Assembly: GCA_041674405.1 (NCBI GenBank)
Contig: JBAYVT010000001.1
Coordinates: 180,001-212,000 of the forward strand
Source: Patescibacteria group bacterium
GTDB lineage: Bacteria > Patescibacteriota > UBA1384 > XYA2-FULL-43-10
Direction of reading: 5' to 3'
DNA length: 32,000 bases
Shown here: one piece after another, positions 3,984-13,448 of the stretch
Layout of the letters: every line of letters starts with the position of its first letter
Numbering within the stretch: the first letter of the stretch is position 1
Translations under genes and position numbers: made by a program
The notes under the pieces: model-generated
What the model saw: the letters and a program-made list of their open reading frames with translations, nothing else
Told to the model about the DNA's origin: nothing
Databases searched by the model: none

Positions 3984-4676
3984 ATGTTGGATATCTTCAA
4001 AAGGCCAATTACCGTCATTATCATTGTTGGGGCGATTGTGATCGCCCTTATCTGGTCATATGTTGACAAGAGAATTCAATCCAATAAGGAAGCTGCGGAA
4101 GCTAAAAAAATTACCGATGCCGCTCAGATCATTACCAATCTTACCAATATAGATCCCAAAGATTACGATGAATTAGTGAAGGCTGAATATCAGAAAGCAG
4201 TTACGAATGCGACAGCAGCTGATCCAAATAATGCATTTTCGGCGTTGGTGGTAGAATTGCCAGGCGACCTTGCCTTAAACTCGGGAAATGACAGATTTGT
4301 TTTTACTTCTCCGGACAATGCTGCAAATAACTGGACCATCACATTTTCTGAGCTTACCGGCAACTTTATTCGGGCAATAATTCCCAAAAGCGATTATTTA
4401 GGGGAACTGAAGCCGGTAAATACAAACCTATGGAAATTCCAATATGTGACGGCAATTCAAATTGCCGAACAAAATGGCGGAAAGACTTTTCGTGAAAACA
4501 ATTCTTTGACCGGAGTTACACTTACCCTGAAGCACGGAGACCCGAATAATTGGCTGGCATGGACAGTCGAATACAACAGCAAGGATAATAAATTTGTAAA
4601 ACAGGTTGATGCCAATTCCGGAAAAACGATTGATTCAATTTCAACTACCGGAGATCAAGCATCTTCTGTCCAGTAA
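3984..4676 (+). CDS. Membrane-anchored hypothetical protein with PepSY-like C-terminal region
   Basis: SD AGGAGG lies before the ATG. There is an N-terminal TM helix (ITVIIIVGAIVIALIW). The C-terminal pattern 'YVTAIQIAEQNGG...VTLTLKH...WTVEY...VDANSGKTI' resembles PepSY; this is a by-eye call. Confidence 0.7.
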   Translation: MLDIFKRPITVIIIVGAIVIALIWSYVDKRIQSNKEAAEAKKITDAAQIITNLTNIDPKDYDELVKAEYQKAVTNATAADPNNAFSALVVELPGDLALNSGNDRFVFTSPDNAANNWTITFSELTGNFIRAIIPKSDYLGELKPVNTNLWKFQYVTAIQIAEQNGGKTFRENNSLTGVTLTLKHGDPNNWLAWTVEYNSKDNKFVKQVDANSGKTIDSISTTGDQASSVQ

Positions 4677-4769
4677 TTCAAATCTCAAATTTCAAATCTC
4701 AAAAATAAGGAATTAAATATTTAAATATTTGAGATGAAATTTTGACTTTTGAAATTTAAGTTTTGAGAT
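4677..4769. repeat. Intergenic word repeats: 2x TTCAAATCTCAAA (direct) and 2x TTTGAGAT (inverted)
   Basis: Direct copies at 4677-4689 and 4691-4703. Inverted partial copies at 4728-4735 and 4762-4769; the last sits immediately 5' of the dnaJ-like start. The palindrome AATATTTAAATATT lies between them. Confidence 0.7.
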
Positions 4770-4774
4770 ATATC

Positions 4775-5437
4775 ATGTCCAAGGATTACTATAAAATTCT
4801 AGGAGTGGACAAGAGGGCTTCCGCCGACGAAATCAAAAAAACATATCGGAAGCTTGCTTTGGAATGTCATCCGGATCGAGGCGGAGGAGACAAAGCGGAA
4901 GAGAAATTCAAAGAACTGAACGAAGCTTATCAAGTTCTTTCGGATTCACAGAAACGGGCACAATACGATCAATTTGGCTCAACATTCGCAGGCGGACAGG
5001 GCAGCGGTGGATTTGGCGGTTTCGATTTTGGCGGATTCCAAGGGCAAGATTTCGGTGGATTCGGTCCCGAAGGGGCCCACTTTGGGGGCTTTGGCGGCGG
5101 CGGGCTTGGCGATATATTTGATGATTTCTTTGGTGCTGCTTTTTCATCCGTGTCTGCTGAGATTGAGATTGGCCCCGCGCAAGCTGTTCTCGGTGAAAAA
5201 ATTTCGATCAATGTTAGTGGTGAAAATATTGAACTAAATATCCCACCTGGCATTCAGGATGGAACTACTTTTCGGTTTCTTGGCAAGGGTCGCGCATACA
5301 ACAAGTCGGGTAAGAAAGGCGATCTCAATGTGATAGTGCACATAAAAATGCCTCAAAGAATCACACCGGAGCAAAAGGAGCTATGGGAGAAGCTTAAGGA
5401 AGCCGAATCAAAGAAGAAATCTTGGTGGCAACGCTAG
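4775..5437 (+). CDS. J-domain co-chaperone, DnaJ-like but lacking the zinc-finger domain
   Basis: J domain 'DYYKILGV...HPDRGGG' (HPD motif), a G/F-rich linker, and one C-terminal DnaJ-type segment ('[17 protein letters not shown]...[12 protein letters not shown]'). There are no CxxCxGxG repeats. ATG-4775 gives the canonical N-terminus; the track's TTG-4763 adds 4 aa. Confidence 0.88.
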
Positions 5438-5918: not shown

Positions 5919-7322
5919 TTATAATTTGTCAATTTTAGAACTGATTGAAGCAAAATAATCTTTGATATTTTGATAATTTAAGTTTTCTTTGACCTCATTC
6001 AGCAACACCCAAACAGGAATTTCGTCGGTTTCTTTTTCTCCAAGATCCACTTTCTCTGATCTAAAAAGAAACATTTTACAGGTGATTCCTTTCGGGTTCA
6101 TTTTATTTACATACTCGAAATCGGGCAGATCAGTTCCATCAGACACTACAACCCCGGTTTCTTCAAATATCTCTCTGATAGCCGCTTTCTTTTCATCTTC
6201 TCCAGGCTCTAAGTGGCCTTTTGGAAATGAAAACTCATTGTTGTGACGCGGCCGCTGGATCATCAGAACATATTTTTTGCCTTGGCGCTCCAACACAACT
6301 ATTCCGCCTGATTTTAGAGTGTGCCCTGCTGGATTTTTTACTTTATTTGGATGATTCAGCTCCGAAAGAATAACTTTTATTAATTCTTCTATACCTTTAT
6401 TAGCTGCGGCAGAAATCGGAATAGCAACCACGCTAATTTCTTCAAATTGCCCGATTTTTGACTTGATGTTTTCTGAAGATTCAACATCGGTTTTATTTAA
6501 TACAACAATTTCATTTTTGCTGCTTAAGTTTTTTGAAAATTCCTCAAGCTCCTTGCGAATTGTTTTGTAATCACGAATCACATCGTCACTCATCGAATCA
6601 ATCACATGCACAAGCAAATTGGTGCGCTCGATATGTTTTAGGAATCGATCGCCAAGCCCACGTCCAGCCGATGCTCCTTCAATCAAGCCAGGGATGTCGG
6701 CGACAATAACATTGCGATCTATACCCTTAATAACCCCTAGATTCGGCGTAAGCGTAGTAAAGGGATAGTCGGCAACTTTCGGCCTAGCATTGGAAATAAC
6801 CGATAAGAGAGTTGACTTACCAGCATTTGGAAGGCCGATGAGCCCTACATCTGCGATCATTTTAAGTTCCAGGTTTAAACGTTTTGATTCTCCGAATAAG
6901 CCCTTTTTTGACCATTTTGGAGCTTGTTTGATCGAGGTGGCAAAATGTACATTTCCCCAGCCGCCTTGCCCCCCACTTACTGCGACGTATGAACCGGCAT
7001 CACCCGCTAGATCAGCTACCAATTTATCATCTTCAAATATTTGTGTGCCTAGGGGCACATTCAATTTAAGATCATCGCCGTTTTTGCCGTGCATTTTTTT
7101 ACCCATTCCATTTTGGCCATTTTCCGCACTGAATTTTCTGATGCGGTTAAAATAAGACAGATCCGATGTGTGTGAATCGGCAGAGATGATGACACTGCCA
7201 CCATTTCCTCCATCTCCCCCATCGGGCCCACCTTTTGGAACATATTTTTCATGGCGAAAAGAGGCAGACCCATCTCCGCCATTGCCGGCTTTCACATAAA
7301 TTTTCGCTTCATCAAAAAACAT
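5919..7322 (-). CDS. obg: GTPase Obg/CgtA fused to a C-terminal Nudix hydrolase domain
   Basis: Glycine-rich Obg fold ('GGDGGNGGSV'), G1 'GLPNAGKST', G3 'DIPGLIEGA' and G4 'NKTD'. The C-terminal ~130 aa carry a perfect Nudix box 'GHLEPGEDEKKAAIREIFEETGV' (6150-6218). The canonical N-terminus MFFDEAKIY starts at ATG-7322; the track start at 7355 adds 11 aa. Confidence 0.92.
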   Translation of the reverse strand: MFFDEAKIYVKAGNGGDGSASFRHEKYVPKGGPDGGDGGNGGSVIISADSHTSDLSYFNRIRKFSAENGQNGMGKKMHGKNGDDLKLNVPLGTQIFEDDKLVADLAGDAGSYVAVSGGQGGWGNVHFATSIKQAPKWSKKGLFGESKRLNLELKMIADVGLIGLPNAGKSTLLSVISNARPKVADYPFTTLTPNLGVIKGIDRNVIVADIPGLIEGASAGRGLGDRFLKHIERTNLLVHVIDSMSDDVIRDYKTIRKELEEFSKNLSSKNEIVVLNKTDVESSENIKSKIGQFEEISVVAIPISAAANKGIEELIKVILSELNHPNKVKNPAGHTLKSGGIVVLERQGKKYVLMIQRPRHNNEFSFPKGHLEPGEDEKKAAIREIFEETGVVVSDGTDLPDFEYVNKMNPKGITCKMFLFRSEKVDLGEKETDEIPVWVLLNEVKENLNYQNIKDYFASISSKIDKL

Positions 7323-7327
7323 GACTT

Positions 7328-7432
7328 TCACAGAATGGTTATCACAGAATTTCACAGAATTGATTGCAGCATGGATTCATGAGATTCACAGAAATGATAT
7401 TTTTCTGTGTCTTTCTGTGTGATTTTTCTGTG
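7328..7432. repeat. Array of 7 copies of an 7-8 nt word in the obg leader (4x TCACAGAA, 3x TTCTGTG on the plus strand)
   Basis: TCACAGAA at 7328, 7342, 7352 and 7386. The inverted TTCTGTG at 7403, 7413 and 7426. On the obg (minus) strand this reads 3x CACAGAA followed by 4x TTCTGTGA. Confidence 0.8.
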
Positions 7433-9934: not shown

Positions 9935-10744
9935 CTACTTTCCACTCCTCAGAAGTGATCTTAAACGATTTTCTAGCCGGTCGCTGCCGATTCTTCTCTC
10001 AATCGCCCCATCCGCAGCAAGTGAAACATTGCCAGTTTCCTCCGACACAATTACAGATACCGCATCAGAATTTTCGGTTATTCCAAGACCAGCCCGATGT
10101 CTTGTTCCCATTTTTGATGATGCCTCAAAATCGGATACTGGCAGGGTAACCGATGCGGCAACTATTTTCGATCCGGAAATTATGACGGCTCCATCGTGCA
10201 GCGGGGATCGAGGAAAAAATATCGAAAGGAGTAACTCGGCGGATACTACGGCATCTAGCTCGGCCCCTCGTTCAATATATTCCCGAAGACCGGTTTTGCG
10301 CTGAAAAACGATCAAAGCGCCAATTTTTTGTTTGGACAAAATATCTACCGCCGCAAGAACTTCGTTCACTACATTAAGCTGTGTACCGCGGCCAAAATCT
10401 TTGATAAATCTGGTCCGGCCAAGCCGCTCAAGGGCGTTTCGAAGCTCGGGCTGGAAAACAATTGGAATTGCAACAACAAGCATCGCCATAATATATTGGA
10501 GAATCCAATTTAATAGTACCAGATTCATTAATCTGCCAATCAACATAAGAGCTAGGAGAAAAAATAGGCCATAGAGGATTCTCATCGCTCGCGTTTCTCG
10601 CAGAAAAATATAAGCCCAATAAAAAAGAACCGTCACTATAAACACATCGAGAATTATGAGAGGCCACGAAGTAGCATGGAGGTTCTCAAAAAAATAACTA
10701 GCCTTTGATGTAACACTTAGGACTTGACCAGACATTGAATCCAC
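9935..10744 (-). CDS. cdaA: Diadenylate cyclase CdaA (DisA_N/DAC domain, 3 TM helices)
   Basis: DAC motifs 'LHDGAVII' and 'GTRHRAGLGITENSDAVSVIVSEETGNVSLA', with three N-terminal TM helices. GTG start at 10744 with AGAGGGA 7 nt upstream; an alternative ATG is at 10735. Confidence 0.93.
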   Translation of the reverse strand: MDSMSGQVLSVTSKASYFFENLHATSWPLIILDVFIVTVLFYWAYIFLRETRAMRILYGLFFLLALMLIGRLMNLVLLNWILQYIMAMLVVAIPIVFQPELRNALERLGRTRFIKDFGRGTQLNVVNEVLAAVDILSKQKIGALIVFQRKTGLREYIERGAELDAVVSAELLLSIFFPRSPLHDGAVIISGSKIVAASVTLPVSDFEASSKMGTRHRAGLGITENSDAVSVIVSEETGNVSLAADGAIERRIGSDRLENRLRSLLRSGK

Positions 10745-10782
10745 TGAAAAATCCCTCTGTTGTAATAAATGAATACACTATC

Positions 10783-10810
10783 ATTTTACCACAAGCAGAA
10801 TTTGATGCAA
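10783..10810 (-). promoter_or_regulatory. Candidate cdaA promoter (extended -10)
   Basis: Minus strand: TTGCAT (10810->10805), 16-nt spacer ending in TGG, TAAAAT (10788->10783). It starts 13 nt after the 3' end of the ribozyme motif. Confidence 0.5.
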
Positions 10811-10823
10811 AAAATACGGGTAG

Positions 10824-10878
10824 ACCCCTTTCGTCGTAATTTTCAACGACTCATCAGAACACTTATGTGTTGAGGGGT
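10824..10878 (-). ncRNA. Type III hammerhead ribozyme motif
   Basis: Minus strand 5'-ACCCC UC^AACAC AUAA GUGUU CUGAUGA GUCGU UGAAAAUU ACGAC GAAA GGGGU-3'. Both conserved core strands are present, along with G10.1:C11.1, A15.1:U16.1 and an NUH triplet (CUC). There are three perfect helices: I and II are capped and III is open. Predicted cleavage is between 10872 and 10871. Confidence 0.8.
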
Positions 10879-10910
10879 GGACGAACAGCAAATGTCCGCC
10901 CCGGGCAGGC

Positions 10911-11402
10911 TTAGGCCTCCTCCATGACCTGAGCCAGAGTCAGAAACTCCTTGTCCCGACTAAACGACTCGAATCCCATCGGGACATCATTCTCCCGCCG
11001 CAGCTTAAGTACGCCGTGGCGTTCGAGAGCCACACCCATGGTGACGGCAAGGTCGCACAAGGCTACGGCATCTTCCCCCTTGCAAACCCCGAAGTCCACC
11101 ATGAAGCTTCTCGTGACCAGCTCACACAGCGTGAAGCAGCACTCCGTGCTTGGCTGGCCCCACTCTTCCAGTGTCGGCCTCGGATGTTCTGCCGCCGCCT
11201 CCGGCTTTTGCACCTTGTGGCGTGCTGCAAAATCATCGAGGATTCCGACAATCTTCTCCCAGTCTGCCACATCTTCCGCACGGGAAGATTCTTTCAGTGG
11301 CAGAAGTGAGAGATAGATACTTGCCAGCAGCCCCTCGAACTCTTCATACCTGAAGTCGGTGTGGGGCATCGTCCCGACATTCAGTTGGGCTTCTTCGCCC
11401 AT
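10911..11402 (-). CDS. Orphan acidic protein, 163 aa, 5 Cys, no recognisable family
   Basis: ORF track 10911..11423. I prefer ATG-11402 because AAGGAG (11417->11412) lies 9 nt upstream. It is the longest ORF in the island, its composition is protein-like (E/L/A/D-rich), and G/C-ending codons (for example CTG Leu) contrast with neighbouring genes. Confidence 0.7.
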   Translation of the reverse strand: MGEEAQLNVGTMPHTDFRYEEFEGLLASIYLSLLPLKESSRAEDVADWEKIVGILDDFAARHKVQKPEAAAEHPRPTLEEWGQPSTECCFTLCELVTRSFMVDFGVCKGEDAVALCDLAVTMGVALERHGVLKLRRENDVPMGFESFSRDKEFLTLAQVMEEA

Positions 11403-11439
11403 TGGGCACCACTCCTTTATCACTCGAGTTTCGCACTAG

Positions 11440-11468
11440 ACAATACAAGATTTATCCTTTAATGTCAA
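11440..11468 (-). promoter_or_regulatory. Near-consensus promoter driving the GC-rich ORF
   Basis: Minus strand: TTGACA (11468->11463), 17-nt spacer, TATTGT (11445->11440). The predicted 5' UTR is about 30 nt and contains the SD. Confidence 0.55.
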
Positions 11469-11493
11469 GGATCAATCAGTAATTCAGACTAAT

Positions 11494-11521
11494 AAAAAAG
11501 ATCGAGAACTCGATCTTTTTT
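11494..11521 (-). terminator. Intrinsic terminator of infB (bidirectional form)
   Basis: AAAAAAGATCG-agaact-CGATCTTTTTT lies 26 nt downstream of the infB stop, with A/T runs on both sides. Confidence 0.75.
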
Positions 11522-11546
11522 ATTATTTCCGAAAAGATATTATTTG

Positions 11547-13448
11547 TTATTCTATCGTTCTGGGTTTTTCGATAGTTTTGAAAATGATAATTTTATCACC
11601 TACAGCAATCTTTGCTCCGGCATCCGCACCAAATCCAAACTCAATTCCGGCATCAACTTCTTTAACCTCGTCCTTTTCTCTTCGCAATGAGAGAATTTTT
11701 CCTCGCCACTTTTCATTGTCATTTTGGAAAACCTTGATTTCATTTCCAATGGCAGCTTTTCCACCATCAAGCCTTGCGCCAGCAACTACACCTTTCTTGT
11801 CATCACGGAATATTGCCAAAATCTCGCCGCCTCCAAGCTCATCTTCAATAATTTCTGGAGGAAGCATACCAGAAAGTGCCCCCTTAACATCTTCAATAAG
11901 TTTATAAATAACATCATACAGCTCTACTGGGATCTTTTCTTTTTCAGCAATTTTTAGAGCTGCCTGAAGCACTTTGACTCGAAAACCAATAATGATTGCT
12001 TTGGTCGCCTTAGCAAATGTAATATCTGATTCTGAAATCGTGCCAATTCCTTCGGATACGACATTCATTTTAATTTCTTGGGTATCGATTTCGTTAAATG
12101 ACTTCTTGATTGCTTGTAGCGATCCGTTTACATCTGCCTTTAGAACAATGTTTAATTCCTTGGATTTTCCAGTGGCAATATCGTCCGCCACCTCCTCAAT
12201 TCCAACTTTTTGTGCCGTAGCAACATGAGCAATACTTATGCTTTCTTTGATCTGCGATGCTGCTTCCCTTGCTTCTTTTTCATTGTCGTAAGCAATTAAT
12301 TTGTCACCAAAAGTCGGCAATGATTTTAATCCGGCAACTCGGGCTGGAAAGCTTGGTGGAGCTGATTTGATTGGCCTTCCTTGATAATCTTCCAATATTC
12401 TAACCTTACCCCATGACGAGCCTATCTGGACGGGATCACCGACTTTCAAGGTACCATTTTCGATAAGCGCAAGCGCCAGTGCTCCGGCTCCTTTATGCAT
12501 ATGTGATTCGATAACCACTCCGACAGCCTTGTCAGAAGGATTAGCTTTTAGTTCCATAAGATCAGCTTGCAGTAAAATAAGCTCAAGTAAATTATCAATG
12601 CCAATGCCAGTTTTCGCTGAAACCTCTACCATCGGTGTTTTACCGCCCCATTCCTCTGGAACAAGTTCATATTCGGAGAGCTGTTGTTTAACTTTCATTA
12701 CATCAGCATCAGGCAGGTCAATCTTATTGATGGCGACAATCACCGGCACATGATGAAGCTTGATTTGTTCGATCACTTCCTGCGTTTGCGGCATAACTCC
12801 GTCGTTGGCCGCAACAATAAGAACGACTATGTCCGTAATTGCCGCTCCATGGCTTCGAAGGGCCGAAAAGGCTGCATGTCCAGGAGTGTCAATAAATGTG
12901 ATAGTGCGATTTTTAATGCCACTTTTTACCTTGTTTAGCGTGACTTGATAAGCAGAAATGTGCTGGGTAATTCCGCCTGATTCACCCTCGGCGACATGTG
13001 CCTCTCGGATTTTATCCAAAAGTGAAGTCTTGCCATGATCGACATGTCCCATAATAGTTACGACTGGTGGGCGAATTTCGGATCCCTCGGATGAGATTTC
13101 AATCTTTGCCTTTTCTTGCGATTCTACCGGGTTTTCTTCTTCCTTTTCCTTCACACTGATTCCAAGATCATCCGCAATGATAGCCGCTGTTTCAAAATCA
13201 ATTGTTTGGTTAATATTGGCCAATATGCCGTTTTTCATCAGTTCAGAAATAATGCTAGTTACAGGCAAGCCGGTTACGACGGCAAAATCTTTAACCGTAA
13301 TGACCGCAGGAATTAATATTTCTCCCCTACTCTCCCTAGTGGCTGTTTCCTGCATTTCAGGAATATTATTTTGGGTAGCAAAAGAGCGGCGATTCTGCGC
13401 CCGCTTTTTTTTGTCGCTCTTTTTTTGTGGATATCGTTTCTTTTGCAT
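11547..13448 (-). CDS. infB: Translation initiation factor IF-2
   Basis: 633 aa with a basic N-terminus, a GTPase domain 'GHVDHGKTSLLD', 'DTPGH' and 'NKID', and the C-terminal IF-2 domains. Confidence 0.97.
   Translation of the reverse strand: MQKKRYPQKKSDKKKRAQNRRSFATQNNIPEMQETATRESRGEILIPAVITVKDFAVVTGLPVTSIISELMKNGILANINQTIDFETAAIIADDLGISVKEKEEENPVESQEKAKIEISSEGSEIRPPVVTIMGHVDHGKTSLLDKIREAHVAEGESGGITQHISAYQVTLNKVKSGIKNRTITFIDTPGHAAFSALRSHGAAITDIVVLIVAANDGVMPQTQEVIEQIKLHHVPVIVAINKIDLPDADVMKVKQQLSEYELVPEEWGGKTPMVEVSAKTGIGIDNLLELILLQADLMELKANPSDKAVGVVIESHMHKGAGALALALIENGTLKVGDPVQIGSSWGKVRILEDYQGRPIKSAPPSFPARVAGLKSLPTFGDKLIAYDNEKEAREAASQIKESISIAHVATAQKVGIEEVADDIATGKSKELNIVLKADVNGSLQAIKKSFNEIDTQEIKMNVVSEGIGTISESDITFAKATKAIIIGFRVKVLQAALKIAEKEKIPVELYDVIYKLIEDVKGALSGMLPPEIIEDELGGGEILAIFRDDKKGVVAGARLDGGKAAIGNEIKVFQNDNEKWRGKILSLRREKDEVKEVDAGIEFGFGADAGAKIAVGDKIIIFKTIEKPRTIE

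What the first reader, a model, noticed from the sequence alone, without database searches (positions are those of the whole stretch)
10811..11470. Compositionally foreign single-gene cassette inserted between infB and cdaA
G+C jumps from about 40% to about 52-62% within a few nucleotides on both sides. Hand counts: 25/60 in cdaA and 24/60 in infB, against 31/60 and 37/60 inside the cassette. The 163-aa ORF uses G/C-ending codons (CTG, GAG, GCC, GTG), unlike every neighbouring gene. It is acidic and mostly helical-looking. It carries 5 Cys, including a 'TECCFTLCE' cluster, and matches no family I can recognise. The AT-rich promoter (TTGACA-17-TATTGT) and AAGGAG SD are nonetheless well formed. 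I found no integrase, no terminal inverted repeats and no target-site duplication by eye. This is either a recent horizontal acquisition of an orphan gene into a housekeeping intergenic gap or an assembly/construct artefact.
Basis: seen in the sequence. Interest (0 to 1): 0.75.

Follow-up and report, generated by a model that had tools for sequence, protein, structure and literature searches.

The report
Foreign gene cassette ending in hammerhead ribozyme

Summary
orfX (10911..11402, minus strand, 163 aa) has GC3 0.67, against 0.39 +/- 0.04 for 26 other ORFs (z = 7.7). The best G+C-rich segment of the window is 10872..11415.

It is not an assembly artefact. The same junctions occur in three assemblies, one of which differs by a SNP elsewhere.

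It is an insertion. Relatives keep gyrA-infB-[spacer]-cdaA-ybbR. The spacer is empty in one relative (203 bp), and two closer ones show only AT-rich DNA upstream of cdaA. Two others carry unrelated genes there, so the spacer is a variable hotspot.

The new finding is a complete type III hammerhead ribozyme motif at 10823..10879, starting 31 nt after the stop codon. Its 29-nt core plus stem-loop II is identical to 30 hammerheads in uncultured phage contigs. Helices I and III covary with phage type III copies.

The protein belongs to a small unnamed family (about 106 clusters). Named members are from Patescibacteria, two archaeal and one gammaproteobacterial MAG, and one phage contig. It has a confident fold with no match in PDB or BFVD, no conserved gene partner and no conserved cysteines.

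Best reading: a recently acquired, moron-like transcription unit whose mRNA 3' end is cut by a phage-class hammerhead. Protein function is unknown. Interest is moderate.

The parts
11547..13448 (-). infB (IF-2), the conserved upstream neighbour. It is context, not part of the insert.
   Evidence: ORF list. Pfam IF-2/GTP_EFTU on the identical gene in L001. 75-76% nucleotide identity to relatives up to the stop codon.
11490..11525 (.). Perfect 17-nt inverted repeat with A/T runs on both sides. It is a terminator-like hairpin after infB and is AT-rich like the spacers of relatives.
   Evidence: Inverted repeat I1. The simple terminator scan did not call it, because it requires at least 3 G-C pairs in a short stem.
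11440..11468 (-). Promoter-like site for orfX: TTGACA-17-TATTGT (10 of 12 matches). The -35 region 'TTGACATTA' aligns with a repeated motif in the empty spacer of relative L009, so it may be native DNA rather than imported.
   Evidence: Promoter scan. Spacer alignment.
11412..11417 (-). Shine-Dalgarno AAGGAG, 9 nt before the ATG at 11402.
   Evidence: Read from the sequence. The G+C-rich segment begins here, at 11415.
10911..11402 (-). orfX, 163 aa (stop codon included in the coordinates). It is a member of a small unnamed protein family and has foreign composition.
   Evidence: GC3 0.671. Homologues. AlphaFold2 pLDDT 93.9, pTM 0.89. No hit in Pfam, NCBIfam, PADLOC or PHROGs beyond one weak sub-threshold match.
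10874..10902 (-). Hairpin in the orfX 3' UTR (GGGGCGGAC...GUCCACCCC). Its 3' arm is also the 5' strand of hammerhead helix III, so it is an alternative fold. It would be the terminal stem-loop of the cleaved mRNA.
   Evidence: Minimum-free-energy folds of 10872-10925 and 10780-10915. Its role is inferred.
10823..10879 (-). Type III hammerhead ribozyme motif. Helix III is ACCCCU/AGGGGU. The cleavage site follows C at 10872 (between 10872 and 10871). Helix I is AACAC-AUAA-GUGUU. The core is CUGAUGA. Stem-loop II is GUCGU-UGAAAAUU-ACGAC, followed by GAAA.
   Evidence: Rfam RF00008 scores 45.3 bits against a gathering score of 48.5, with E = 5.4e-7 for the whole window. The minimum-free-energy fold gives the three-way junction. 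The 29-mer is identical to 30 phage hammerheads. Covariation with phage copies is seen.
10783..10811 (-). Promoter-like site for cdaA (TTTGCA-17-TAAAAT with an upstream TG). It corresponds to the conserved 'TGTGTTATAAT' of relatives and is native DNA that marks the left limit of the insert.
   Evidence: Promoter scan. Alignment with relatives.
9935..10744 (-). cdaA (diadenylate cyclase), the conserved downstream neighbour. It is context, not part of the insert.
   Evidence: ORF list. Pfam DAC/CdaA_N. Homologues.

Best explanation
The interval holds a recently acquired insert of about 0.62-0.64 kb, running from roughly 10812-10823 to 11437-11455. It landed in the infB-cdaA spacer of a Patescibacteria genome, a spacer that carries different cargo in different relatives. 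The unit is self-contained and resembles a phage 'moron'. It has a sigma-70-type promoter (whose -35 may be native), a strong Shine-Dalgarno, one ORF of a small uncharacterised family, and a type III hammerhead ribozyme where a terminator would normally be. The hammerhead belongs to a class that is abundant in uncultured phage genomes, where it sits between co-directional genes.

Proposed mechanism, inferred rather than shown: transcripts from the orfX promoter run into the hammerhead. The RNA cleaves itself after C10872, 38 nt past the stop codon. The 5' product is a gene-length orfX mRNA ending in a 2',3'-cyclic phosphate. Its last 29 nt before the terminal UC can refold into a stable hairpin (10874-10902). 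The 3' product carries the cdaA-ybbR message with a 5'-hydroxyl and a structured 5' end. The ribozyme would therefore define the mRNA 3' end and uncouple the imported gene from the c-di-AMP operon downstream, which also keeps its own promoter.

The protein is a cytoplasmic helical bundle with a beta-hairpin. It has no catalytic signature and no conserved gene partner. Its function is unknown. My guess is an accessory protein that acts by binding another protein and is exchanged among these bacteria and their phages.

Confidence by step: horizontal insertion about 0.9; genuine hammerhead-class element about 0.85; active 3'-end processing or insulation role about 0.5.
For: Foreign composition.

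Insertion: synteny gyrA-infB-[spacer]-cdaA-ybbR-LysM/CHAP-obg is conserved. The spacer is empty in L009/L010. L127 and L128 show only AT-rich DNA upstream of cdaA as far as their contigs reach. L011 has a PF05635 gene there and L012 has two other ORFs.

Not a chimera: three assemblies agree.

Hammerhead: all core nucleotides and three helices are present. E = 5.4e-7 in 32 kb. The 29-nt core plus stem-loop II is identical to 30 viral-contig copies, and 31 more carry a compensatory U-A to C-G change. In an alignment with 8 phage type III copies, 97.8% of cells are paired, 8 of 15 pairs show changes on both sides, and 0 of 500 shuffles reach the observed value.

Phage context matches the window. 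In phages the copies are mostly intergenic and co-oriented with their neighbours, a median 18-45 nt after the upstream stop. Here the motif starts 31 nt after the stop.

Literature: bacterial and prophage hammerheads flank single genes, cleave in vitro, and are proposed to cut long transcripts into gene-length mRNAs (PMC3088659; PMC6765202).

No terminator-like site lies between orfX and cdaA. The 3' hairpin is predicted.

The family is real and accessory. It has 106 clusters. It occurs in Yanofskybacteria and Azambacteria MAGs and an 81-kb viral contig. It is often directly downstream of tRNA genes or at the edge of a methylase/recombinase block. Its neighbours are otherwise diverse.

The closest homologue in full-length alignment, P0015 (50% identity), also sits in a 53-55% GC island next to 34-45% GC DNA and has its own TTGACA-17-TATGAT promoter.
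Against: Self-cleavage was not tested. The Rfam score is 3.2 bits below the curated threshold. In a longer context the minimum-free-energy fold prefers the upstream hairpin over helix III, so the ribozyme could be slow or inactive in vivo.

None of roughly 25 other loci encoding family members has a hammerhead. None of the 107 hammerhead-bearing viral stretches encodes a family member. The gene-ribozyme pairing is therefore unique to this locus and might be an accident of which DNA fragment was captured.

No donor was found. The nearest homologue by BLAST is only 56% identical over 77% of the protein.

No insertion mechanism is visible: there are no repeats and no recombinase. The exact insert ends cannot be fixed because the spacers of relatives are poorly alignable. 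Expression of orfX is unknown.
Confidence: 0.6

Rival explanations
1. The gene was acquired horizontally as described, but the hammerhead is a passenger relic. It would be a piece of phage intergenic DNA that came along on the captured fragment and has no present role. On this view orfX transcripts simply read through into cdaA or end elsewhere.
For: The gene-ribozyme pairing is unique to this locus. A competing upstream hairpin sequesters the helix III strand in longer folds. cdaA keeps its own promoter downstream of the ribozyme, so the host does not need the cleavage.
Against: Every core position and all three helices are intact. The stem-loop II module is identical to the phage consensus. 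There is no alternative terminator for orfX. The composition shows the insertion is recent, so intactness alone cannot separate a relic from a functional element.
Confidence: 0.22
2. orfX is an orphan immunity-type or antitoxin-type protein, related to PA2201/PoNi-like immunity proteins of polymorphic toxin systems, kept to protect against a competitor's toxin.
For: There is a weak Pfam match to PF20734 PA2201_N (E = 0.0019, 18.5 bits, residues 37-94). The protein is small, acidic (pI 4.6), helical and encoded by a stand-alone gene in variable spots.
Against: The match is below the gathering score of 27 and is seen in only 1 of 7 family members. A profile search of the family against all PDB sequences finds nothing at E <= 0.1. 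Foldseek against PDB gives no hit at E <= 0.001. No toxin or effector gene is adjacent in any locus examined. Acidity is not conserved, since some members have pI above 9.
Confidence: 0.05
3. The gene is ancestral at this position and was lost in relatives. Its composition would then reflect selection or amino-acid content rather than foreign origin.
For: Only a handful of relatives were available, and none is closer than 90% CdaA identity. The spacer is clearly dynamic.
Against: The excess is at third codon positions: GC3 is 0.67 while GC2 is 0.39, the same as in host genes. Other family members match their hosts' low GC3 of 0.20-0.57. All four relatives nearest by CdaA identity (84-90%) lack it.
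Confidence: 0.04
4. The cassette is an assembly chimera or laboratory-construct contamination joined to a Patescibacteria contig.
For: The composition boundaries are abrupt. Ribozyme insulators are used in synthetic constructs (my own knowledge). One Logan contig ends inside the hammerhead, at window position 10835.
Against: The junctions are identical in ENA, JGI and Logan assemblies, and the JGI contig spans both junctions and carries an independent SNP. Homologues occur in environmental genomes. The hammerhead sequence matches environmental phage copies rather than the sTRSV-derived RiboJ sequence, which I compared from memory.
Confidence: 0.02

Closest known systems
Hammerhead ribozymes of bacteria and prophages that flank single genes (Perreault et al. 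2011, PMC3088659; Rfam RF00008 for the type III architecture)
   Same: It has the same catalytic core and three-helix junction. It is intergenic, co-oriented with the flanking genes and lies just after a stop codon. It is next to an accessory gene of unknown function. The same stem-loop II module (GUCGY-UGAAAAUU-RCGAC) occurs in 61 uncultured-phage copies found here.
   Different: It is a single ribozyme, not a flanking pair or cluster. It lies in a chromosomal housekeeping locus of a Patescibacteria genome with no phage or integrase genes nearby. It scores just under Rfam's gathering threshold. No paper in the searchable library mentions both hammerheads and Patescibacteria.
Phage morons (Hendrix and colleagues; criteria as summarised in PMC2920897)
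   Same: It is inserted between two genes that are adjacent in a relative. It has its own promoter. Its nucleotide composition differs from its surroundings. It sits at a hotspot where relatives carry different cargo.
   Different: The host replicon is a bacterial chromosome, not a phage. No intrinsic terminator is present, and a self-cleaving ribozyme occupies that position instead.
Engineered ribozyme insulators such as RiboJ
   Same: A hammerhead sits between transcription units. Cleavage separates the upstream RNA from the downstream message and leaves a structured 5'-OH end.
   Different: This is a natural sequence unrelated to the sTRSV-derived part. Here it follows an ORF rather than a promoter, and its function is inferred rather than shown.
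Small accessory genes in variable intergenic spots of reduced genomes, for example the PF05635 (23S rRNA-intervening-sequence protein) gene in the same spacer of relative L011
   Same: Both are single short helical-protein genes occupying the same infB-cdaA spacer.
   Different: hhalign finds no sequence relationship (probability 0.1%). The L011 gene has host-like composition on inspection of the sequence and no ribozyme.

Membership tests
Hammerhead ribozyme, type III (Rfam RF00008) | Conserved catalytic core: C3 U4 G5 A6 N7 G8 A9, G12 A13 A14, the A15.1-U16.1 pair, and H17 (not G) at the cleavage site | tested here: met
   The sequence contains CUGAUGA, GAAA, an A-U closing pair of helix III and C17 at 10872.
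Hammerhead ribozyme, type III (Rfam RF00008) | Three helices around the core, with helices I and II closed by loops and helix III open | tested here: met
   The cmscan alignment covers model positions 1-54 of 54. The minimum-free-energy fold of the isolated element gives the same junction: helix III 6 bp, helix I 5 bp, helix II 5 bp.
Hammerhead ribozyme, type III (Rfam RF00008) | Score at or above the family's curated gathering threshold | tested here: not met
   The score is 45.3 bits against 48.5. E = 5.4e-7 for the 32-kb window and 5.1e-9 for 301 nt. This is a curation threshold rather than a biological feature.
Hammerhead ribozyme, type III (Rfam RF00008) | Helices supported by compensatory changes among related copies | tested here: met
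   In alignment A6 (window plus 8 viral type III copies), 97.8% of cells are paired. 8 of 15 pairs change on both sides. The covariation score is 0.578 against 0.178 for shuffles (0 of 500 reach it). Slid controls pair in at most 59% of cells.
Hammerhead ribozyme, type III (Rfam RF00008) | Site-specific self-cleavage giving 2',3'-cyclic phosphate and 5'-OH ends | not testable with these tools
   This needs in vitro transcription or end-specific RNA-seq.
Hammerhead ribozyme, type III (Rfam RF00008) | Tertiary contact between loop I and loop II (or a pseudoknot) needed for fast cleavage at physiological Mg2+ | not tested
   Loop II (UGAAAAUU) is the conserved module of the phage class. Loop I (AUAA) recurs in L043, and L079 has AUUA. 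No three-dimensional or pseudoknot analysis was done.
Phage moron | Inserted between two genes that are adjacent in related genomes | tested here: met
   infB and cdaA are separated by only 203 bp in L009/L010.
Phage moron | Own transcriptional signals (promoter and factor-independent terminator) | tested here: inconclusive
   A promoter-like site with 10 of 12 matches is present. No terminator-like site was found, and a hammerhead occupies that position.
Phage moron | Nucleotide composition different from the surrounding genome | tested here: met
   GC3 z = 7.7. The best G+C segment of the window lies here.
Phage moron | Resides in a phage or prophage genome | tested here: not met
   The flanks are gyrB, gyrA, infB, cdaA, ybbR, obg, dnaJ and dnaK, all syntenic in relatives. 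It is therefore 'moron-like', not a moron.
PA2201_N / PoNi-type immunity protein (PF20734) | Domain match above Pfam's gathering score, shared by the family | tested here: not met
   The score is 18.5 bits against 27, and only 1 of 7 members matches. There is no PDB sequence or fold support.
PA2201_N / PoNi-type immunity protein (PF20734) | Encoded next to a cognate toxin or effector gene, at least in some members | tested here: not met
   The neighbours are diverse housekeeping genes. One Fic-domain gene lies 486 bp downstream in L004 only.
Integrase-mobilised genomic island | Integrase or recombinase gene and flanking direct repeats (att sites or target-site duplication) | tested here: not met
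   There is no such ORF in or next to the insert. No terminal direct or inverted repeats beyond chance were found.

The most novel reading that the evidence does not exclude
Promoter-ORF-hammerhead units may be a recurrent, portable form of gene cassette exchanged between phages and ultra-small bacteria. On this view the ribozyme replaces the terminator and makes expression of the imported gene independent of where it lands, acting as a natural insulator. That would give bacterial hammerheads a concrete role in making horizontally transferred genes 'plug-and-play'. The protein would be a new-fold phage-host interaction factor.
Probability: 0.12. Interest if true: 0.7.

Novelty: new member of a known kind. 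Interest (0 to 1): 0.45.

Why it matters
The biological role of genome-encoded hammerheads in bacteria is still largely unknown (PMC6765202). This locus offers a clean natural before-and-after comparison. There is an empty site in a relative and a filled site carrying one gene plus one ribozyme. The ribozyme lies directly upstream of the c-di-AMP synthase operon (cdaA-ybbR). The cleavage site, the two RNA products and their effect on the downstream operon can therefore be predicted exactly and tested with metatranscriptomes or in vitro transcription. The locus also places this phage-class hammerhead in a Patescibacteria genome, a combination not mentioned in any paper in the library searched. 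It flags an unnamed protein family with a confidently predicted fold that has no match in PDB or BFVD. If the ribozyme proves inactive, what remains is an ordinary small horizontal insertion.

Tried and rejected
(1) Obelisk or viroid-like RNA origin. Several homologues sit on contigs of about 1.0-1.1 kb, which suggested circular RNA elements. I rejected this because the contigs carry host-type neighbouring genes and terminators, come from DNA metagenomes (for example Hainich groundwater, coverage 3), have host-like GC3 and contain no ribozyme.

(2) A second ribozyme upstream of orfX, which would give a flanking pair or a circular RNA. Nothing was found in the window at E <= 1.

(3) A conserved gene-ribozyme pairing. 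No hammerhead was found in about 25 family loci, and no family member was found in the 107 hammerhead-bearing viral stretches.

(4) A conserved operon partner for the protein. None was found: the neighbours are a CCA-adding enzyme, SpoU, DsbA/thioredoxin, L25, SmpB, sigma-70, RecG, M3 peptidase and others.

(5) DNA-mimic anti-restriction protein. Acidity is moderate and not conserved.

(6) A metal- or redox-binding Cys cluster. The cysteines are not conserved.

(7) A relationship to the PF05635 cargo gene of relative L011. hhalign gives a probability of 0.1%.

(8) Curated libraries. Pfam, NCBIfam, PADLOC, PHROGs, GenBank phages (tblastn) and PDB sequences gave nothing significant.

(10) The hammerhead in cultured-phage GenBank records. 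Only chance-level partial matches were found.

(11) Terminal repeats or a target-site duplication. None was found.

(12) The diverse alignment A2 could not seed the locus scans. The narrower A1 motif was used instead, so divergent family members were not sampled.
Full report
OBSERVATION

The window comes from a 395,669-bp contig of an uncultured 'Patescibacteria group bacterium' MAG (NCBI locus tag WC080_01070; ENA ERZ27247358). The ORF at 10911..11402 on the minus strand (orfX, 163 aa) has GC 0.571 and GC3 0.671. Six neighbouring genes have GC 0.41-0.45 and GC3 0.36-0.40. Against 26 other ORFs of at least 100 aa in the window (GC3 0.387 +/- 0.037, maximum 0.504), orfX lies 7.7 standard deviations out. 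A maximal-scoring G+C segment runs 10872..11415 (544 bp, 58.3% GC, score 50.4). The next best segment in the 32 kb scores 19.7. The flanking spacer DNA is 26-30% GC. The excess is at third codon positions, because GC2 is 0.39, the same as in host genes. The scan finds the promoter-like TTGACA-17-TATTGT site, and the AAGGAG Shine-Dalgarno lies 9 nt before the ATG. No integrase, terminal repeats or target-site duplication were found.

NOT AN ARTEFACT

The identical protein lies in the same infB-orfX-cdaA arrangement on a JGI contig (3300037067, 6,114 bp). That contig spans both junctions and differs from the window only by one SNP in infB, at window position 12471. It also lies on a Logan contig from SRR6484325. 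Reads could not be mapped. I could not establish that the three assemblies come from independent samples.

AN INSERTION INTO A VARIABLE SPACER

I used CdaA to find relatives. The order gyrA-infB-[spacer]-cdaA-ybbR-LysM/CHAP-obg-dnaJ is conserved in them.
- In L009/L010 (CdaA 84% identical) the spacer is 203 bp of AT-rich DNA with no gene.
- In the two closest relatives (90% and 88%), the 89 and 170 bp available upstream of cdaA are AT-rich and contain neither a ribozyme nor G+C-rich DNA.
- In L011 (84%) the spacer holds a 124-aa PF05635 gene.
- In L012 (67%) it holds two unrelated ORFs.

The spacer is therefore a hotspot, and orfX is specific to the window's own lineage. Spacer alignments suggest two limits. 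The cdaA extended -10 region (window 10783-10811) is native. The -35 'TTGACATTA' of the orfX promoter matches a repeated motif of the empty L009 spacer. This puts the insert at roughly 10812-10823 to 11437-11455. The ends cannot be fixed more precisely.

THE HAMMERHEAD

Reading the minus strand downstream of the stop codon shows ACCCCUC|AACAC-AUAA-GUGUU-CUGAUGA-GUCGU-UGAAAAUU-ACGAC-GAAA-GGGGU. This is a complete type III hammerhead. The Rfam match starts 31 nt after the stop codon.
- Rfam RF00008 aligns it end to end at 45.3 bits, with E = 5.4e-7 for the whole window. The curated threshold is 48.5, so the default search missed it.
- The isolated element folds into the three-way junction.
- A pattern for its core plus stem II (CTGATGAGTCG-N6-14-CGACGAAA) hits 107 stretches of IMG/VR viral contigs.
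- The window's exact 29-mer occurs 30 times among those hits. A variant with a compensatory U-A to C-G change in stem II occurs 31 times. Many of these copies come from closely related phage contigs.
- By a simple structural classifier, 83 of the pattern matches are type I and 18 viral copies are type III. Several type III copies share the 5-bp helix I and an AUAA or AUUA loop with the window.
- In an alignment of the window with 8 viral type III copies, 97.8% of cells pair and 8 of 15 pairs show changes on both sides. No shuffle out of 500 reaches the observed covariation, and slid controls collapse.

In the viral contigs these ribozymes are mostly intergenic and co-oriented with both neighbours. 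They lie a median 18 nt (type I) or 45 nt (type III) after the upstream stop codon. The window matches this geometry. Perreault et al. 2011 reported hundreds of bacterial hammerheads, many near integrases and prophages. They often flank single genes, cleave in vitro, and were proposed to cut long transcripts into gene-length mRNAs (PMC3088659). A later review still calls the function unresolved (PMC6765202).

HOW IT MOST LIKELY WORKS (INFERRED)

No terminator-like site lies between orfX and cdaA. Transcripts from the orfX promoter should therefore reach the ribozyme and be cut after C10872.

The 5' product ends in a sequence that can refold into a stable hairpin, 10874-10902. The 3' arm of this hairpin is also the 5' strand of helix III. 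This could protect the new 3' end and prevent religation. It could equally compete with ribozyme folding.

The 3' product carries cdaA-ybbR with a 5'-OH. cdaA also keeps its own promoter downstream of the ribozyme.

The left end of the G+C-rich segment coincides with the cleavage site. This may only reflect the ribozyme's own AU-rich loops.

THE PROTEIN

A search of 5.8 billion proteins returns 7 sequences. The best is 56% identical over 77% of the query. A profile search of 1.84 billion cluster representatives gives 106 clusters, 30 of them at E <= 1e-30.

The N-terminal motif G-x-M-P-x-T-D-F-x-Y-E-E-F-E-G-L-L is the most conserved part. The cysteines and the net charge are not conserved. AlphaFold2 gives a confident model (pLDDT 93.9, pTM 0.89) of a helical bundle, a beta-hairpin and a C-terminal helix.

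No annotation could be attached:
- Foldseek finds nothing at E <= 0.001 in PDB or BFVD.
- Profile-versus-PDB, Pfam, NCBIfam, PADLOC, PHROGs and GenBank phages give nothing. The one exception is a sub-threshold PA2201_N match that the rest of the family does not share.

Named genomes with members are Candidatus Yanofskybacteria, Candidatus Azambacteria, two short contigs binned as Methanosarcinales and one contig binned as Gammaproteobacteria. One member is on an 81-kb viral contig next to a tRNA array. Sixteen more loci came from JGI metagenomes.

The neighbours are diverse housekeeping genes with no recurring partner. Several members lie directly downstream of a co-oriented tRNA gene: 48-82 bp in L143, L137 and L132, and 270-400 bp in L017 and L130. 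One sits at the edge of a block holding a DNA methylase, a DUF559-like gene and a serine recombinase.

In most other loci the gene's composition is close to its host's, with GC3 0.20-0.57. In L007 it is moderately raised (0.51, against 42% G+C for the rest of the contig). The closest homologue in the full-length alignment (P0015, 50% identity) is the clearest exception. It lies in a 53-55% GC island beside 34-45% GC DNA and has its own TTGACA-17-TATGAT promoter. It comes from the same assembly as relative L012. This hints at a G+C-richer sublineage of the gene moving among low-GC genomes in that habitat.

COMPARISON WITH KNOWN SYSTEMS

The RNA element meets the sequence, structure and covariation criteria of a type III hammerhead. 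Activity is untested, and the Rfam score is just under threshold.

The cassette meets three of the four moron criteria summarised in PMC2920897. It is inserted between genes that are otherwise adjacent, it has its own promoter, and its composition is deviant. It is not in a phage and it has no terminator. It works like a moron but is not one.

It is not an integrase-borne island and not a demonstrable immunity gene.

VERDICT

It carries a previously unnoticed phage-class hammerhead ribozyme at its 3' end. Both kinds of element are known, so this is a new member in a new host lineage and context. The gene-ribozyme pairing is so far unique to this locus. The protein's function remains unknown. 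Interest is moderate (0.45).

Noticed in passing
window 5919..7355 (-): Obg GTPase is fused to a C-terminal NUDIX hydrolase domain, with the Nudix box GHLEPGEDEKKAAIREIFEETGV (467-478 aa). Relatives L009/L010 and L012 have a plain Obg of 322-325 aa with no NUDIX hit. This is a lineage-specific fusion of a (p)ppGpp-binding GTPase with a nucleotide pyrophosphatase fold.
   Followed up: partly
window 10872|10871 and 10872..11415: The left end of the maximal G+C-rich segment falls exactly at the predicted hammerhead cleavage site, and the right end falls in the Shine-Dalgarno. The G+C-rich stretch therefore equals the predicted mature mRNA body. This may be a coincidence caused by the ribozyme's AU-rich loops.
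   Followed up: partly
window 10874..10902 (-): A stable hairpin in the orfX 3' UTR shares its 3' arm (ACCCC) with hammerhead helix III. In a 136-nt context the minimum-free-energy fold forms this hairpin instead of helix III. It could gate cleavage or cap the cleaved mRNA.
   Followed up: partly
L003 (Logan SRR6484325), end at window 10835: The Logan contig is 100% identical to the window but stops inside the 29-nt hammerhead module (10829-10857) that is shared with many phage genomes. The break may reflect a graph branch or low coverage. It was not examined.
   Followed up: no
L009 1690-1760; L127 1-35; window 11455-11470: The infB-cdaA spacers of relatives contain short repeated motifs. L009 has TTGACATTAG twice and TTAGACATT twice. 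L127 has TTAGGTCAATTA twice, roughly the reverse complement. The window keeps one copy, TTGACATTA, as the -35 of the orfX promoter. These could be regulator or recombination sites in the hotspot.
   Followed up: no
L011 893..1267 (+); L012 4664..5914: The same spacer carries other cargo in relatives. L011 has a 124-aa PF05635 (23S rRNA-intervening-sequence protein family) gene. L012 has two ORFs (177 aa and 206 aa) with no Pfam match.
   Followed up: partly
L014 1..309 (-) and 4360..5115 (+) (Cand. Yanofskybacteria; same region in L130): Two further strongly G+C-shifted ORFs (GC3 0.84 and 0.75, in a 46% GC contig) lie within 3 kb of the family gene. The 251-aa ORF has no Pfam match. This suggests a cluster of foreign insertions around a tRNA-rich region.
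   Followed up: no
L132 7781-7853, L143 7870-7953, L137 1571-1643, L017 7009-7119, L130 2410-2568: Family genes recur immediately downstream of co-oriented tRNA genes (Glu, Ser, Gln, Arg/Ala), with gaps of 48-400 bp. This fits integration or variable hotspots at tRNA 3' ends, or co-transcription with tRNA processing.
   Followed up: partly
L019 / L138 (IMG/VR UViG_3300025121_000038, 81 kb): This viral contig carries a family member directly upstream of a 419-aa class I aminoacyl-tRNA-synthetase-like gene (MetRS-type Pfam hits). An array of tRNA genes lies about 1-7 kb upstream.
   Followed up: partly
L020-L126 (viral contigs): The hammerhead stem-loop II module GUCG(Y)UGAAAAUU(R)CGAC is nearly invariant across type I and type III architectures in uncultured phages: 61 of 108 pattern matches, with Y-R covarying. 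The loop may be a conserved tertiary-contact or protein-binding element. Many copies come from one IMG dataset (3300045988).
   Followed up: partly
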